From Candidatus Helarchaeota archaeon (GTDB lineage Archaea; Asgardarchaeota; Lokiarchaeia; Helarchaeales; RDOG01), in the NCBI GenBank assembly GCA_019058315.1, contig JAHPZH010000004.1, positions 64,001-128,000 on the forward strand: a stretch of 64,000 nt of DNA. The letters run 5' to 3'. The notes under the pieces are model-generated. The model saw only the letters and a list, made by a program, of their open reading frames with translations, had not been told where the DNA came from and searched no databases. A program made the position numbers and the translations under genes. This document shows positions 15,704 through 19,953 of the stretch, one piece after another; position 1 is the stretch's first letter; every line of letters starts with the position of its first letter.

Positions 15704-16915
15704 GTGTCAGACCAAAAATTCTCTGATTGGGATTTTAAAGGAGTAGATACTAAATATTCTACCCACGGAATTCATTATTACCCAGCCAGGATGATCCCAC
15801 AAATAGCTAACCGTCTGATATGTAATTATTCAAAACCTTATGATTTAATCCTTGATCCATTTTGTGGATCAGGGACTGTATTATTAGAATGTAAATTATT
15901 AAATCGAAATTCAATTGGATTTGATATCAATCCACTTGCTTATTTGTTGTCCAGTGTCAAAATAACTCCTCTGACCAATTTTGATTCAAAATTTCCAGAA
16001 TCTATTTTTAAGAAATTAAAAATTAGAATCCCAGAGAGAGAAATGAATAAATTTTTACCTAAATTTAAAAATTTAAAGTACTGGTTCACCGAAAAATCAA
16101 TAAAAGCTCTGTTAATTATTAAATATTTCTTATTTACTGAAAGTTTACCAAGAAAAATTTTAAATTTTCTCAAAATATGTTTTTCCAAGACTGTCCAAGA
16201 GGTTTCTAAAGGTGTATTCGATGGGAGCTCTACTCATTTAAAGAAAAATTTACAGAATTTTTCTCCAAATGTATTTGAAGTTTTTAAGAAAAATATGATT
16301 GAAACGCTAGAAAAGATGAAAGAATTAAAGGAATTAAATAATTCATTGGAAACTTTAGCACTATCTTGTGATTCAAGGAATATTCCTTTAAAAGAAGATT
16401 CAACGGATTGCATAATTACTTCACCTCCTTATGGAGAAGAACAAAATACAATTGGTTATATGAGATGGACGAAATTTTCGTTATATTGGTTAGACTATAC
16501 TCCAGATGAATTACAAAAATTGAAAAAAAAGACGTTAGGATCAAGGAGCAATAATGAGATTTTAGTTAGATCTAAATACCTGCTTGATTATATTAACACT
16601 CTTAAAATATCCGAAAAAAGAATGGAATATGTTAAATCTTTTTTCTTTGATTATTTATTATGTCTAACGGAAATGTTTCGTACATTAAAACCTAATAAAT
16701 TTTGTTGCATTGTTATCGGGAACAGAACAATTGCTAAAAAACCATTATTTTTAGATAGAATAACCCTTGACTTGACTGCTAGTATCGGGTTTGAACATGT
16801 GAATACATATTTCAGACAAATTCCTACAAAAGCAATTCCTTGGAAAGGAATTTCTGGCAAAACAATTAAAAAAGAAAACATAATAATTCTAAAAAAACCA
16901 AAGAGAATCGATTAA
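15704..16915 (+). CDS. N4-cytosine/N6-adenine DNA methyltransferase (motif I before SPPY), apparently orphan
   Basis: TH..H.YPA.MIP, DPFCGSGT, ITSPPY. Confidence 0.88.
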   Translation: MSDQKFSDWDFKGVDTKYSTHGIHYYPARMIPQIANRLICNYSKPYDLILDPFCGSGTVLLECKLLNRNSIGFDINPLAYLLSSVKITPLTNFDSKFPESIFKKLKIRIPEREMNKFLPKFKNLKYWFTEKSIKALLIIKYFLFTESLPRKILNFLKICFSKTVQEVSKGVFDGSSTHLKKNLQNFSPNVFEVFKKNMIETLEKMKELKELNNSLETLALSCDSRNIPLKEDSTDCIITSPPYGEEQNTIGYMRWTKFSLYWLDYTPDELQKLKKKTLGSRSNNEILVRSKYLLDYINTLKISEKRMEYVKSFFFDYLLCLTEMFRTLKPNKFCCIVIGNRTIAKKPLFLDRITLDLTASIGFEHVNTYFRQIPTKAIPWKGISGKTIKKENIIILKKPKRID

Positions 16916-16927
16916 AATTATAAATTA

Positions 16928-17548
16928 TTAAAGAGCTTTTTTTAATTTAATATACCCTTGTTTTTGATATTGGCGAATAATTTGATTTACATACAATCGA
17001 GTCTTGTTACTCTCTTTCATTATATATTCAACATCATTTTCCCCATTACATAAATTCAAAACAGTGGCATGTTCAATTGGGATTTTTATTTCACCTAAAT
17101 CTTTTACTAATAAGGGCACAAATTTACTTTTTTTCTTTTTAACTTCCACTTGTTCTTTTACTGGAGCTTTTTCAATTTCCTCTTCAATAGGCTTTTTAAT
17201 ATCGCCAATACTTGAATCAATTTTGGGGATATACTTATGCATAATAGGTTTAAATGCTAGAAGTTGTCCTAATGCTCCTTTTTTGGTATGTAGAATAACC
17301 ATCGCCTTTTCACTGATTTTAAAAAAAATCATATTTATTCCACTTAGTGGGACTGAATGATCCCCTACTTTGAGCATTGGATAAGTCGTAGCCAAAAAAT
17401 CTTTAATTAAATCCGTATATTCCCCCAATTCAGAATCAATGTAACATATTTCTCCATTTGCATTCACGATAGCACAATATGGTCTTACAGTTAATAATGC
17501 ACCTAATTCTGAAGCAATTTCCCTTGAAATCTTGTAAAATTCTGACAT
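16928..17548 (-). CDS. Hypothetical protein: alpha/beta N-terminal domain plus C-terminal winged helix
   Basis: 206-aa ORF; VL.LC.G...V..I......V..II..Y...GYI C-terminus is wHTH-like. Confidence 0.55.
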   Translation of the reverse strand: MSEFYKISREIASELGALLTVRPYCAIVNANGEICYIDSELGEYTDLIKDFLATTYPMLKVGDHSVPLSGINMIFFKISEKAMVILHTKKGALGQLLAFKPIMHKYIPKIDSSIGDIKKPIEEEIEKAPVKEQVEVKKKKSKFVPLLVKDLGEIKIPIEHATVLNLCNGENDVEYIMKESNKTRLYVNQIIRQYQKQGYIKLKKAL

Positions 17549-17680
17549 TTACCAATCGTCAAATAAATGAGTTTAAATTTATTAAAATAATGAAAACTAA
17601 TTGATATATGAATTTTTATAATCTTAAATTAAAATTTCACTTTATTAATTTTGCAAGAATATTAGGTTTGGTTGGAAATA

Positions 17681-18426
17681 ATGAATGTAAAAATAATAAT
17701 GAAAGAAGAAATCCAGTTTAAAGATTGCATATTTATTACTGGTTTCTATGGCCTTGGCGCTACAGGATATAAATAGTTTTTCTGTTTACTTGAAATATCG
17801 CCATCCGTCATATGGTCGAAGCCTTAGATGTAAAAAGTATTGGGTATATGGAAACTGATCAGCTTCCAAGTTTCGTTAGCCTTGAAAATAATCGCCTCTC
17901 TTTGCCATTTGAATTTTTTAAATATGAAAATTTGGTGATTTTTCTTGCAAAGGTTCAACCTGCCCAATCGGAAATTAATGAAATAACCAAAACACTTGTC
18001 AATTGGGTTGTTACAAATAAATTTTCTGAAAGTATCTTAATTGGTGGTTTGGATTCTAAATTAAAAGAAGAGGATGATGAAACGCATAAAATTGTGCCTA
18101 CAAAAACATTCTCAAATCCCGAGAGGATAGGGTCTAACTTAGATAAAGGATTATTTGTAACTGGTCCACTAGCTCTTATGCTCATATATTTTGAAATGAT
18201 GAATTTTCCTGCATGTGCAATATTACCCTACTGTGAACGTGAACGGCCAGACCCTCGAGCAGCAGCAACCGCAATTCAAATATTAAACAAGCTATATCCA
18301 AAATTGAAAATCGATTTGGAAAAATTATATGGCGATGCTAAAAAGATTGAAGAAGAAATTGGATTAATACTTAAACAAGAGCGAGAAATGAGAGAACGTG
18401 AAGAACCTGGTGGGATGTACGTATAA
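17681..18426 (+). CDS. PAC2-family proteasome assembly chaperone/activator (PbaB-like); two exons, join(17681..17768,17795..18426), 239 aa
   Basis: Exon 1 encodes MNVKIIMKEEIQFKDCIFITGFYGLGATG(Y); exon 2 continues IAIRHMVEAL...IGG...PDPRAA...GGMYV (HbYX tail). The ORF track finds only the exon-2 part. Confidence 0.9.
17769..17794 (+). other. 26-nt bulge-helix-bulge (tRNA-type) intron in an mRNA
   Basis: Outer helix 17755-62/17796-803 (7 of 8 pairs), central 4-bp helix CAGG 17763-66/CUUG 17789-92, bulges AUA 17767-69 and AAA 17793-95, inner helix UAAAUAG/CUGUUUA with U5 loop; removal restores frame and motif. Confidence 0.88.
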
Positions 18427-18492
18427 ACAAAAATTTTTTTAATTTGTAAATTATTAAGAAATAAGAAATGAAATTATTTAGGATATGATTTA

Positions 18493-19953
18493 ATGGAAGG
18501 AAAAAAAAAGCGGGTTACCAGATCTAAAATTGTGTGCACTATAGGACCCGCTAGTAATTCTGAACAGATGATTCGTGAATTAATTAACGCTGGCATGGAT
18601 GTAGCTAGATTAAATTTATCCCATGGAACACATGAAAGCCATACAGAAACTTTTAATAGAATTAGGAATGTATCAGAGAAAATTGCCATTTTATTTGATA
18701 TTCAAGGTCCTAAAATTCGTATTGGAGATATTAAGGACAAAAAAACCTACTTTTTAAAATTAGGTGACCAATTTACACTAACATCGAGAGATATTGAAGG
18801 GAATAACGAAATTGTTTCAGTAAGTTATAAGAAATTACCTGCAGAAGTTGACCCTGGAGATTTACTTTATATTAATGATGGGCTAGTTGGTCTTAAAGTT
18901 TTAGAAGTTACTAATGGAACTGATATTAAATGTGAAGTTATAACAGGTGGGGAGATATCAAGCCATAAAGGTATTAATGCTCCAAACGTTAAAATTACTG
19001 CAAAGGTTCCTACTGAAAAAGATATCGCAGATTTAAAATTAGCTGCTAGGTTAAAACCGGATTATATAGCTGCTTCCTTTGTTTCATCAGCAAATGATGT
19101 CGAAAATGTTAAAAAAGTGATACTTGAGGAAGGGATTAGTGTTCCTATAATAAGTAAAATTGAACGCCCTATTGCAGTAAAAGATTTTGATTCCATTTTA
19201 GAGGCTTCTGATGGAATTATGGTTGCTCGTGGCGATTTAGGAGTGGAGGTGCAAAGCGAAAATGTTCCTGGTCTCCAAAAAAATATGATAAGGAAATGTA
19301 ATCGAGTCGGAAAACCTGTAATATGCGCAACACAAATGTTGGACTCAATGCAATGGAACCCTATACCTACCCGGGCTGAAGCTAGTGATGTCTTCAACGC
19401 CATTTTCGATGGTGCAGACGCCGTTATGCTTTCTGGAGAAACAGCGGTCGGAGATTATCCTTTAGAATCAATTAAAATGATGGAAAAGATTATTATCAAT
19501 GCCGAAAATTCCATGCCTCCACTAGATTTATATCAATATGATTCTAAAAGCCCATCAAATTCTGAAATTCTTGCCCATGCAGGATTAGTAATATTAAGAC
19601 TAATTGAACATCATAGAAAATCAAAATTAGACGCCATAGTTGTCATAACTCGTTCGGGCCATACTGCAAAAATGATTTCGAAATTTAGACCTAATACTCC
19701 TATTTTCGCTGTAACATTTGATAAAGCAATTTACAGAAAATTATTTTTGCTGTGGGGTGTTGAGGCTTTCATTATCAAACAGTTATCGGATTTAGATTCC
19801 ATTAATAAATCTGCTGTCGAAACGGTATATAATCAAGGATATGTTTCAATGGACGATACTATATTAATTTCATCCGGATCAGACTTAGTTCCACATATGC
19901 AGACTACTTCTATTAGTCTATTTTCTGTAAAAGATATAATCTCTAAAGAATAA
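18493..19953 (+). CDS. pyk: Pyruvate kinase
   Basis: KIVCTIGPAS, ARLN.SHG, D.QGPKIR, SKIE, MVARGDLGVE, ATQMLDSM, PTRAE.SDV, MLSGETA.G. Confidence 0.97.
   Translation: MEGKKKRVTRSKIVCTIGPASNSEQMIRELINAGMDVARLNLSHGTHESHTETFNRIRNVSEKIAILFDIQGPKIRIGDIKDKKTYFLKLGDQFTLTSRDIEGNNEIVSVSYKKLPAEVDPGDLLYINDGLVGLKVLEVTNGTDIKCEVITGGEISSHKGINAPNVKITAKVPTEKDIADLKLAARLKPDYIAASFVSSANDVENVKKVILEEGISVPIISKIERPIAVKDFDSILEASDGIMVARGDLGVEVQSENVPGLQKNMIRKCNRVGKPVICATQMLDSMQWNPIPTRAEASDVFNAIFDGADAVMLSGETAVGDYPLESIKMMEKIIINAENSMPPLDLYQYDSKSPSNSEILAHAGLVILRLIEHHRKSKLDAIVVITRSGHTAKMISKFRPNTPIFAVTFDKAIYRKLFLLWGVEAFIIKQLSDLDSINKSAVETVYNQGYVSMDDTILISSGSDLVPHMQTTSISLFSVKDIISKE

What the first reader, a model, noticed from the sequence alone, without database searches (positions are those of the whole stretch)
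17755..17803. Canonical bulge-helix-bulge intron in a protein-coding gene (PAC2/PbaB proteasome chaperone)
Seen: from ATG 17681 the frame reads ...ITGFYGLGATGY-K-stop. The rest of the PAC2 motif (IAIRHMVEAL) resumes 26 nt later in another frame, behind a TGA. The junction folds into a full hBHBh' motif: outer helix UGGCGCUA/UAUCGCCA (one C-U mismatch), central 4-bp helix CAGG/CUUG, two 3-nt bulges (AUA, AAA) each 3' of the central helix, and a 7-bp inner stem with a U5 loop. Established: archaeal EndA cuts after the second nucleotide of each bulge. Here that excises 17769-17794 and joins GGA T|AT ATC GCC = G-Y-I-A, giving a 239-aa PAC2 protein ending in the HbYX motif (MYV). BHB introns are typical of archaeal tRNA/rRNA, and the best-known mRNA case is crenarchaeal cbf5. 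Inference: this is EndA/RtcB-dependent mRNA splicing of a proteostasis gene in a probable Asgard archaeon. It resembles non-spliceosomal, RtcB-ligated splicing of XBP1 (also a 26-nt frameshifting intron, possibly coincidence) and could be a regulatory switch, since unspliced mRNA yields only a 31-aa peptide. I cannot check whether this case is already published.
Basis: partly seen in the sequence, partly recalled or inferred. Interest (0 to 1): 0.95.

Follow-up and report, generated by a model that had tools for sequence, protein, structure and literature searches.

The report
tRNA-type intron in Asgard PAC2 gene
A proteasome-chaperone (PAC2) gene of an Asgard archaeon is interrupted by a 26-base intron shaped like a tRNA intron, and seven related organisms keep it at the same spot, so the mRNA almost certainly has to be cut and rejoined before the protein can be made. 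In print, this kind of splicing is documented for only one archaeal protein gene (cbf5).

Summary
The PAC2 frame from ATG 17681 stops after 31 codons. A 26-nt insert (17769-17794) folds, as the minimum-energy structure, into a strict hBHBh' motif. Cutting after the 2nd nucleotide of each bulge restores GATGY|IAIRH and a 239-aa PAC2 protein ending in MYV.

New evidence comes from seven independently assembled relatives (71-88% protein identity).
- All carry a 28-29-nt insert at exactly the same site with the same fold.
- The central helix is paired in all eight sequences and includes one compensatory A-U to U-A swap.
- The loop is hypervariable, and the variable bulge positions fall exactly on the intron side of the predicted cuts.
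- Both exons are under purifying selection (exon 2 dN/dS 0.06-0.17). The start codon and the 88-nt exon 1 are kept in all eight sequences.

Homologs at 58% identity or less lack the insert, and the intron-bearing proteins group together in the tree. The genome encodes an alpha/beta EndA pair and RtcB. I verified six more protein genes in this genome with such mini-introns.

No RNA data were available, so splicing is inferred, not shown. The XBP1-like 26-nt length is a coincidence, and the regulatory-switch idea is untested.

This scan has noted the same phenomenon before, in this genome (rrp41 and others) and in many other Asgard genomes. The papers I could search describe it only for crenarchaeal cbf5.

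The parts
17681..17768 (+). Exon 1 of the PAC2 gene: 88 nt, from ATG through the first base of the Tyr30 codon.
   Evidence: The 88-nt length and a start codon (ATG or TTG) are kept in all 8 homologs. Mean pN is 0.18 against pS 0.55.
17769..17794 (+). 26-nt BHB intron. It begins with the 3rd nucleotide of bulge 1 and ends with the 2nd nucleotide of bulge 2. It carries stops in both the exon-1 frame (TAG 17774) and the exon-2 frame (TAA 17770, TGA 17791).
   Evidence: Relatives carry 28-29 nt at the same site. The loop varies in sequence and length while the stems are conserved.
17795..18426 (+). Exon 2 of the PAC2 gene, through stop TAA 18424-18426. It encodes the rest of the PAC2 domain and the C-terminal HbYX motif (MYV).
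   Evidence: dN/dS is 0.06-0.17 among the 8 homologs.
17755..17762 (+). Outer helix h, 5' strand (exon 1, codons Gly-Ala-Thr).
   Evidence: 87.5% of cells are paired across the 8 sequences. Intron-less orthologs lack this complementarity.
17763..17766 (+). Central 4-bp helix H, 5' strand (CAGG, exon 1).
   Evidence: Paired in 100% of cells. L036 shows a double change, A-U to U-A.
17767..17769 (+). Bulge 1 (AUA). The predicted EndA cut lies between 17768 and 17769.
   Evidence: The first two nucleotides are invariant (exon). The third varies A/G/T among relatives (intron).
17770..17788 (+). Inner hairpin h' of the intron: 7-bp stem with a U5 loop.
   Evidence: 96.8% of cells are paired. Population variant G17784A turns a U-G pair into U-A.
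17789..17792 (+). Central helix H, 3' strand (CUUG, intron).
17793..17795 (+). Bulge 2 (AAA). The predicted EndA cut lies between 17794 and 17795.
   Evidence: The first two nucleotides vary (AA, AU, GC, AG) and are intron. The third is always A and is exon, the second base of the Tyr codon.
17796..17803 (+). Outer helix h, 3' strand (exon 2, codons Tyr-Ile-Ala).

Best explanation
The PAC2 (PbaA/PbaB-type proteasome assembly chaperone) gene at 17681-18426 carries a 26-nt archaeal bulge-helix-bulge intron.

Proposed mechanism:
1. The gene is transcribed as one pre-mRNA.
2. Exon and intron sequences fold into an hBHBh' motif.
3. The host splicing endonuclease, an alpha/beta EndA pair, cuts after the second nucleotide of each 3-nt bulge (17768|17769 and 17794|17795).
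4. RtcB joins the exons and probably circularises the intron.
5. Only the spliced mRNA encodes the 239-aa protein. Unspliced mRNA stops after 31 codons.

The intron was gained once in the ancestor of a genus- or family-level clade of Helarchaeales-like Asgard archaea, and selection has kept it since. It is one of several such mini-introns in protein genes of this genome.

Shown here: the structure, its conservation, the position of the boundaries, selection on both exons, and the presence of the enzymes. Inferred: the actual cleavage and ligation.
For: (1) The MFE and centroid fold are a strict hBHBh'. RNAalifold on 8 homologs returns the same consensus unaided.

(2) Excision at the rule-predicted sites gives a one-piece PAC2 domain. 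The product aligns without any indel to uninterrupted orthologs across GATGY|IAIRH.

(3) The nine closest database homologs (71-99% identity) are all called truncated at 185-204 aa, while those at 58% or less are full length. Seven were fetched, from JGI, ENA and Logan assemblies with conserved synteny. All carry a 28-29-nt insert at the same site, and all splice to intact 238-243-aa proteins with junction codon TAT.

(4) Pairing across the 8 sequences: central helix 100%, inner stem 96.8%, outer helix 87.5%. L036 has one double compensatory change, CAGG/CUUG to CUGG/CUAG, and its exon half is a synonymous Thr change. Sliding the 3' partners by 1-3 columns drops pairing from 94% to 34-51%.

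(5) Variable positions mark the boundaries. The 3rd nucleotide of bulge 1 and the first two of bulge 2 vary, while their exon neighbours are invariant. This removes the 4-register ambiguity caused by the local ATA repeat.

(6) Synonymous sites are near saturation (pS 0.55-0.67), yet exon 2 dN/dS is 0.06-0.17, and exon 1 keeps its start codon and its 88-nt length. The gene is therefore alive on both sides of the insert.

(7) Insert lengths of 26, 28 and 29 nt fall in different classes modulo 3, and stops lie in both exon frames inside the insert. No single frameshift or readthrough can join the exons.

(8) The genome encodes a catalytic EndA (Tyr/His/Lys present), a second EndA paralog lacking the His, and RtcB.

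(9) My strict genome scan required coding potential on both sides and an MFE that is a BHB. It found 2 sites, this one and an EF-2-like GTPase, against 0 and 0 in shifted-cut controls. More examples were verified.

(10) Independent DNA runs hold the insert. One variant improves a stem pair.

(11) The intron-bearing proteins form one clan with 100/99 support.
Against: There is no RNA-level evidence. No RNA run holding this DNA was listed, and no spliced-form protein appears in the protein database.

Covariation rests on a single double change in 8 rather similar sequences. On that measure the shuffle control is not significant by itself (111 of 500 shuffles reach it).

The outer helix is constrained by coding. 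It is weak or shifted in two relatives (L038, L039), so those motifs are relaxed rather than strict.

The single-sequence fold z-score is modest (-2.4).

The alpha/beta assignment of the two EndA paralogs rests on reading the catalytic residues by eye.
Confidence: 0.9

Rival explanations
1. Decaying pseudogene. A 26-bp insertion killed the PAC2 gene, and the BHB-like fold is a coincidence.
For: The unspliced frame stops after 31 codons. A second PAC2 paralog elsewhere in the genome (C3:480346-480963) could cover the function. BHB-like folds are common by chance genome-wide.
Against: Eight lineages with near-saturated synonymous divergence keep both exons open. They also keep the start codon, an 88-nt exon 1, dN/dS of about 0.1, and the insert's stems. 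A chance BHB in the frame-restoring register is about a 5e-5 event.
Confidence: 0.02
2. Translational recoding. The ribosome bypasses the insert by hopping, as in phage T4 gene 60, or gets across it by frameshifting. The hairpin serves as the recoding signal, and the RNA is never cut.
For: A stop codon directly after the take-off region and a stable hairpin in the gap resemble the gene 60 arrangement.
Against: There is no matching take-off and landing codon pair in the correct frame. The codon before the gap would be TAT, TGT or TTT in different relatives, whereas splicing gives TAT in all of them. Gap lengths of 26, 28 and 29 nt differ modulo 3, and stops lie in both exon frames inside the insert. 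The conserved 4-bp helix and two 3-nt bulges, with a compensatory change, are what EndA needs, not what bypassing needs.
Confidence: 0.03
3. Split expression or RNA cleavage without ligation. The BHB is an EndA processing or decay site, and the C-terminal part is translated on its own from an internal start.
For: In the window an ATG (17812) lies five codons after the junction. EndA also processes non-intron BHB sites in rRNA precursors (PMC7714728).
Against: That ATG is not conserved: relatives have Ile or Leu there, and their first ATG lies about 12 codons further on. Even so, the stretch YIAIRH just after the junction stays conserved at the protein level with synonymous changes, so it is translated. 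Exon 1 is also under selection.
Confidence: 0.04

Closest known systems
cbf5 pre-mRNA intron of Crenarchaeota (Watanabe 2002; Yoshinari 2006; Yokobori 2009, PMC2738675)
   Same: Both are short BHB introns inside a protein-coding ORF: cbf5 introns are 16-44 bp, and this one is 26-29 nt. Both interrupt a conserved motif, so splicing is obligatory. In both, the host has a two-subunit (hetero-oligomeric) EndA. Both show clade-restricted gain.
   Different: The gene differs (a PAC2 proteasome chaperone, not a pseudouridine synthase), and so does the phylum (Asgard, Helarchaeales-like). This intron is one of at least seven such introns in a single genome, not a single case. cbf5 splicing was shown experimentally. 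Here it is inferred.
Archaeal tRNA/rRNA BHB introns (Marck and Grosjean 2003). Asgard tRNA genes are heavily interrupted (bioRxiv 10.64898/2026.10.13.758758).
   Same: The hBHBh' geometry and the cut rule are identical, and the same EndA/RtcB machinery is implied. ARAGORN calls introns in 18 of the 42 tRNA genes of this genome.
   Different: The host RNA is an mRNA. Codons build the exon half of the motif, so the outer helix competes with coding constraints. The preprint on Asgard tRNA introns does not mention mRNA introns.
IRE1/RtcB unconventional splicing of XBP1/HAC1 mRNA
   Same: Both are non-spliceosomal, protein-enzyme splicing of an mRNA. Ligation is by RtcB, at least in metazoans. Both involve a short frameshifting intron.
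   Different: The cut signal differs: IRE1 recognises twin stem-loops with 7-nt loops, not a BHB. The endonuclease differs. The 26-nt length is not conserved here (28-29 nt in relatives). There is no sign of stress-regulated splicing.
SOS splicing of DNA transposons from animal mRNAs (PMC12779559)
   Same: An insert in an mRNA is recognised through base-pairing of its ends and removed without the spliceosome, with RtcB involved. The system lets genes tolerate insertions.
   Different: That system works in animals, is triggered by transposon inverted repeats, and is imprecise. Here the motif is a precise BHB, and the intron is single-copy rather than a transposon.

Membership tests
Archaeal BHB (EndA-type) intron | [quoted passage not shown] | tested here: met
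   This is the MFE and centroid fold of the window. It is also the RNAalifold consensus of 8 homologs. The central helix is paired in 100% of cells.
Archaeal BHB (EndA-type) intron | Flanking helices h (exon-exon) and h' (intron), that is, the strict hBHBh' form | tested here: met
   The window has an outer helix with 7 of 8 pairs and an inner stem of 7 bp. Across homologs, 87.5% and 96.8% of cells are paired. Two relatives (L038, L039) have a relaxed outer helix.
Archaeal BHB (EndA-type) intron | Cuts after the 2nd nucleotide of each bulge give a functional, precisely joined product | tested here: met
   The product has a one-piece PAC2 domain and aligns without indel to intron-less orthologs. 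The junction codon is TAT in all 8 sequences, and the variable bulge positions lie on the intron side of the cuts.
Archaeal BHB (EndA-type) intron | The host encodes a splicing endonuclease and an RtcB ligase | tested here: met
   There are two EndA paralogs (PF01974 plus PF02778; one with Tyr/His/Lys and one without the His) and one RtcB at 9e-175.
Archaeal BHB (EndA-type) intron | The spliced RNA, the excised (circular) intron, or enzymatic cleavage is observed | not testable with these tools
   No RNA run holding this DNA was listed. No spliced-length close homolog is in the protein database.
cbf5-type archaeal pre-mRNA intron | The intron lies in the cbf5 gene, at the catalytic-residue codon, in Desulfurococcales or Sulfolobales | tested here: not met
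   The host gene is PAC2 and the lineage is Asgard. The mechanism is the same but the intron is not homologous.
IRE1-type (XBP1/HAC1) unconventional intron | Twin stem-loops with 7-nt loops at both splice sites, and a conserved 26-nt length (XBP1) | tested here: not met
   The fold has 3-nt bulges around a 4-bp helix. The length is 26, 28 or 29 nt among relatives. An IRE1 homolog was not searched for.
Programmed translational bypass (T4 gene 60 type) | Matching take-off and landing codons flanking the gap, in the productive frame | tested here: not met
   No matching pair restores the ATC GCC frame. The pre-gap codon differs among relatives (TAT, TGT, TTT).
PAC2 family (PF09754; archaeal PbaA/PbaB-type proteasome chaperones) | A PAC2 domain over the whole protein and a C-terminal HbYX motif | tested here: met
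   PF09754 at 6e-33 covers residues 18-218. The C-terminus is G-G-M-Y-V in the window and M-Y-V in all 8 homologs. Assignment to PbaA or PbaB was not tested.

The most novel reading that the evidence does not exclude
Splicing of the PAC2 intron is conditional. EndA/RtcB processing would act as a post-transcriptional gate on the supply of proteasome-assembly chaperone, an archaeal counterpart of XBP1/HAC1-type regulated mRNA splicing. The near-invariant intron stem, which is far more conserved than synonymous sites, would then reflect a regulatory interaction beyond simple spliceability.
Probability: 0.08. Interest if true: 0.92.

Novelty: new member of a known kind. Interest (0 to 1): 0.78.

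Why it matters
Enzyme-catalysed (EndA/RtcB) splicing of a coding sequence is documented for a single archaeal gene family, cbf5 of Crenarchaeota. Reviews and structural papers up to 2025-26 still cite only that case.

This PAC2 intron is old, selected and obligatory, and it sits in an Asgard archaeon next to at least six other interrupted protein genes. That suggests the closest prokaryotic relatives of eukaryotes routinely tolerate, and depend on, mRNA introns removed by the tRNA-splicing machinery.

This bears on three things:
- How interrupted genes and RtcB-type mRNA ligation arose before the spliceosome.
- Gene calling in Asgard genomes. All nine closest PAC2 homologs in the databases are annotated truncated.
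- How translation is kept off unspliced mRNA in cells without a nucleus.

A concrete, conserved substrate is now available for in vitro EndA/RtcB assays.

Tried and rejected
RNA evidence: no RNA holder was listed for window 17300-19300. Only DNA contigs could be laid.

More relatives: the metagenome-contig scan with exon 2 returned only distant homologs at 35-38% identity, with no new intron-bearing loci. The look-up of earlier scan notes by relatives found nothing.

Genome-wide census attempts:
- BHB geometry plus an ORF-fusion test was dominated by background: 1406 real hits against 1390 and 1453 in shifted-cut controls.
- Adding codon-usage scores did not help: 9339 against 9324 and 9570.
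- Pair-count thresholds did not separate real hits from controls.
- Junction-spanning paralog alignments by tblastn gave no enrichment, either gapped or ungapped.
- Only the strict criterion worked (coding on both sides and an MFE that is a BHB): 2 against 0 and 0. It misses relaxed motifs, namely the HDAC and leuC-like introns, and also missed the rrp41 intron for a reason I did not determine.

False positive: a candidate intron in a small GTPase at C11:383696-383726 turned out to lie in a gene that is continuous in another frame.

Mobile-element origin: the intron core is single-copy in the genome. The ATA direct repeat flanking it in the window is not conserved in relatives, so it is not a target-site duplication.

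Rejected readings: pseudogene, ribosomal bypass or frameshift, and split expression. See the rival explanations.

Full report
OBSERVATION

The window is G000:C1:64001-128000 of a 5.79-Mb, 12-contig, 30% GC genome. From ATG 17681 the frame reads 31 codons, ending GLGATGYK, and then hits TAG 17774-17776. The continuation IAIRHMVEAL begins at ATC 17797 in another frame, behind TGA 17791-17793.

The stretch 17755-17803 folds as both MFE and centroid into:
- outer helix UGGCGCUA/UAUCGCCA, with one C/U mismatch
- central helix CAGG/CUUG
- bulges AUA and AAA, each 3' of its central-helix strand
- a 7-bp inner stem with a U5 loop

The energy is -11.7 kcal/mol with z = -2.4. This is the canonical arrangement. 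In a pre-tRNA with a 37/38 intron it places the anticodon stem as h and cuts after the second nucleotide of each bulge (established knowledge; Marck and Grosjean 2003).

Removing 17769-17794 joins GGA T|AT ATC GCC. The result is a 239-aa protein with a single PAC2 (PF09754) match at 6e-33 over model positions 1-211 of 215, ending in MYV.

IS IT MORE THAN CHANCE?

I scanned both strands of the whole genome for weaker BHB-like folds: 4/4 central pairs, at least 7/8 outer pairs and at least 3 inner pairs. They occur about 140 times per intron length, about 1.2e-5 per site. A local ATA repeat allows four registers that restore the frame, so a BHB falling on one of them is roughly a 5e-5 coincidence. 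With a 7-bp inner stem it is rarer still. That is suggestive but not conclusive across a large scan, so I looked for comparative evidence.

COMPARATIVE EVIDENCE

In 60 related reference genomes, the five nearest orthologs (46-57% identity, same family or order) are uninterrupted open frames of 246-258 aa. The spliced protein aligns to them across the junction with no indel: FITGFYGLGATGY|IAIRHMVEAL against FITGFHGVGATGYITIRHMVDNL.

A search of 5.8 billion proteins then showed a sharp pattern. The nine closest homologs (71-99% identity) are all annotated as truncated proteins of 185-204 aa. Everything at 58% or less is full length at 237-263 aa.

I fetched the DNA for seven of the truncated ones, from JGI, ENA and Logan assemblies of different samples. 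They share the synteny methyltransferase / minus-strand gene of about 210 aa / PAC2 / pyruvate kinase. All seven have an insert of 28 or 29 nt at exactly the same position. All give intact 238-243-aa proteins ending in MYV when cut by the BHB rule.

Structure across the eight sequences (alignment A1):
- Central helix: paired in 100% of cells.
- Inner stem: paired in 96.8% of cells.
- Outer helix: paired in 87.5% of cells.
- Sliding the 3' partners by 1-3 columns drops overall pairing from 94% to 34-51%.
- RNAalifold predicts the same hBHBh' consensus unaided.
- L036 carries a double compensatory change in the central helix, A-U to U-A. The exon half is a synonymous ACA to ACT Thr change and the intron half is CUUG to CUAG.
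- The other stem changes are wobble-compatible.
- The loop differs freely in sequence and length.

With only eight fairly similar sequences, the covariation statistics alone are not significant: 111 of 500 shuffles reach one double change. I state this as a limit.

BOUNDARIES

The variation pins the exon/intron borders. The third nucleotide of bulge 1 is A, G or T. The first two nucleotides of bulge 2 are AA, AU, GC or AG. The two nucleotides before the first cut and the A after the second cut are invariant. Only the BHB-rule cuts give TAT (Tyr) in all eight sequences. The other three registers possible in the window would give other codons in L034 and L035. The ATA repeat is therefore incidental and not a target-site duplication.

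THE GENE IS ALIVE

Synonymous differences among the eight are near saturation: mean pS is 0.55 in exon 1 and 0.67 in exon 2. Even so, exon 2 has dN/dS of 0.06-0.17, and exon 1 has pN 0.18 against pS 0.55. Exon 1 also keeps a start codon and the same 88-nt length in all eight.

The intron stems are far more conserved than synonymous sites. The window's ATG at 17812 is not conserved, since relatives have Ile or Leu there. Yet YIAIRH directly after the junction is conserved with synonymous changes, so it is translated as a continuation of exon 1.

The insert lengths (26, 28, 29 nt) fall in different classes modulo 3. Stops lie inside the insert in the exon-1 frame (TAG 17774) and in the exon-2 frame (TAA 17770, TGA 17791). 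No single frameshift or readthrough can connect the exons, and no take-off and landing codon pair fits bypassing. These points reject the pseudogene, recoding and split-expression rivals.

ORIGIN

In a maximum-likelihood tree of 37 PAC2 proteins, the eight intron-bearing sequences form one clan (100/99 support). This is consistent with a single gain.

Intron-less orthologs lack the exon-exon complementarity: for example, GGT GCC ACG GGC TAT ATA ACG in L004 against GGC GCT ACA GGA TAT ATC GCC here. The outer helix therefore uses GC-rich codons specific to the intron-bearing clade. The intron core is single-copy in the genome.

NOT AN ARTEFACT

Contigs of two runs from a different study (98% identical over 701 nt) contain the insert with no indel. 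One has G17784A, which converts a U-G stem pair to U-A, the state seen in the relatives.

MACHINERY

The genome has two EndA paralogs, each with the N-terminal and catalytic-fold domains. The 184-aa one shows the Tyr, His and Lys of the catalytic triad. The 201-aa one lacks the His (read by eye). That fits an (alpha-beta)2 enzyme, the broad-specificity type linked to cbf5 pre-mRNA splicing in Crenarchaeota (PMC2738675; Yoshinari 2006 as cited). RtcB is present at 9e-175. ARAGORN calls introns in 18 of 42 tRNA genes, in line with a recent preprint on heavily interrupted Asgard tRNA genes.

CONTEXT IN THE SAME GENOME

A strict scan required coding potential on both sides, a broken unspliced frame and an MFE that is a BHB. 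It returned two sites against zero in each of two shifted-cut controls: this intron and a 31-nt intron in an EF-2-like GTPase.

Verified mini-introns in other protein genes of this genome:

| Gene | Position | Length | Junction |
|---|---|---|---|
| EF-2-like GTPase | C6:81229-81259, minus | 31 nt | DTPGH\|VD; Pfam GTP_EFTU positions 2-80 and 80-151 abut across it |
| HDAC-family gene | C10:146806-146837 | 32 nt | DHDA\|HAGNGT; Pfam positions 1-152 and 153-295 abut |
| rrp41 | C10:138945-138976, minus | 32 nt | RMATF\|AVDERK |
| leuC-like gene | C6:232831-232857 | 27 nt | GGD\|SHT; three in-frame stops |
| HTH/XRE regulator | C5:499169-499201 | 33 nt | SLIAR\|IETG |
| RNase Z-like gene | C6:64108-64136 | 29 nt | LLFDCGE\|GTQ |

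The rrp41, leuC-like and HDAC sites came as leads from earlier notes of this scan, and I checked them myself. Looser genome-wide filters were swamped by background, so the true number is unknown.

Earlier notes also report similar introns in many other Asgard genomes, two of them with spliced RNA reads. I did not check those. They are leads, not evidence.

COMPARISON WITH WHAT IS KNOWN

The closest published case is the cbf5 intron: 16-44 bp, BHB, obligatory, with a hetero-oligomeric EndA. Papers up to 2025-26 cite only cbf5 for archaeal pre-mRNA splicing.

The PAC2 intron works like cbf5's, but it is a different intron in a different gene and phylum. It belongs to a multi-gene set in one genome.

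The XBP1 parallel is limited to enzyme-based mRNA splicing with RtcB. The cut motif differs, and the 26-nt length is not conserved.

A PAC2-specific regulatory switch is possible but has no support. Similar introns in unrelated housekeeping genes point instead to general colonisation of mRNAs by tRNA-type introns, in a lineage with a permissive endonuclease.

VERDICT

- Observation: confirmed.
- Interpretation: supported by strong comparative evidence, with RNA-level proof missing.
- Confidence that this is an EndA/RtcB-spliced mRNA intron: about 0.9.
- Novelty: a new member of a known kind.
- Interest: high, because of the lineage and the number of affected genes.

Noticed in passing
G000:C6:81229-81259 (minus strand), outside the window: A 31-nt strict BHB intron sits in an EF-2-like translational GTPase. 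It splits the G3 motif DTPGH|VD. Pfam GTP_EFTU positions 2-80 and 80-151 abut across it.
   Followed up: partly
G000:C10:146806-146837 (plus strand): A 32-nt BHB intron (11-bp perfect hairpin, weak 2-bp outer helix) splits the metal-binding DHDA|HAGNGT motif of an HDAC-family deacetylase. Pfam positions 1-152 and 153-295 abut across it.
   Followed up: partly
G000:C10:138945-138976 (minus strand): A 32-nt BHB intron lies in the exosome gene rrp41, with spliced junction ...RMATF|AVDERKSPAP.... An earlier agent of this scan already followed it up.
   Followed up: partly
G000:C6:232831-232857 (plus strand): A 27-nt in-frame insert with three stops interrupts a leuC-like aconitase-family gene and restores GGD|SHT when removed. 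The BHB is relaxed, with a one-nucleotide offset in the inner helix.
   Followed up: partly
G000:C5:499169-499201 (plus strand): A 33-nt BHB insert (central CUAG/CUAG, 9-bp hairpin) interrupts a helix-turn-helix (XRE/MBF1-like) gene. The junction is ...VSQSLIAR|IETGSVD....
   Followed up: no
G000:C6:64108-64136 (plus strand): A 29-nt BHB insert interrupts an RNase Z-like metallo-beta-lactamase gene. The junction LLFDCGE|GTQ restores the family motif.
   Followed up: partly
window 17784: One of two runs from another study carries the population variant G17784A. It turns the U-G wobble of the intron stem into U-A, the state found in all seven relatives.
   Followed up: yes
window 15704-19953 and loci L034, L035, L039: The gene order is conserved around PAC2 across the intron-bearing clade: N6/N4 DNA methyltransferase, a minus-strand gene of about 210 aa with no Pfam hit, PAC2, then pyruvate kinase.
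   Followed up: no
whole genome G000: ARAGORN calls introns in 18 of 42 tRNA genes. Earlier notes of this scan also report a permuted 5S rRNA and a 16S rRNA BHB intron here, so BHB processing seems unusually pervasive in this organism.
   Followed up: no
protein database hits P0001-P0009: Public gene calls for all nine closest PAC2 homologs are N-terminally truncated (185-204 aa) because the intron is not recognised. This is a systematic annotation error for this clade.
   Followed up: yes
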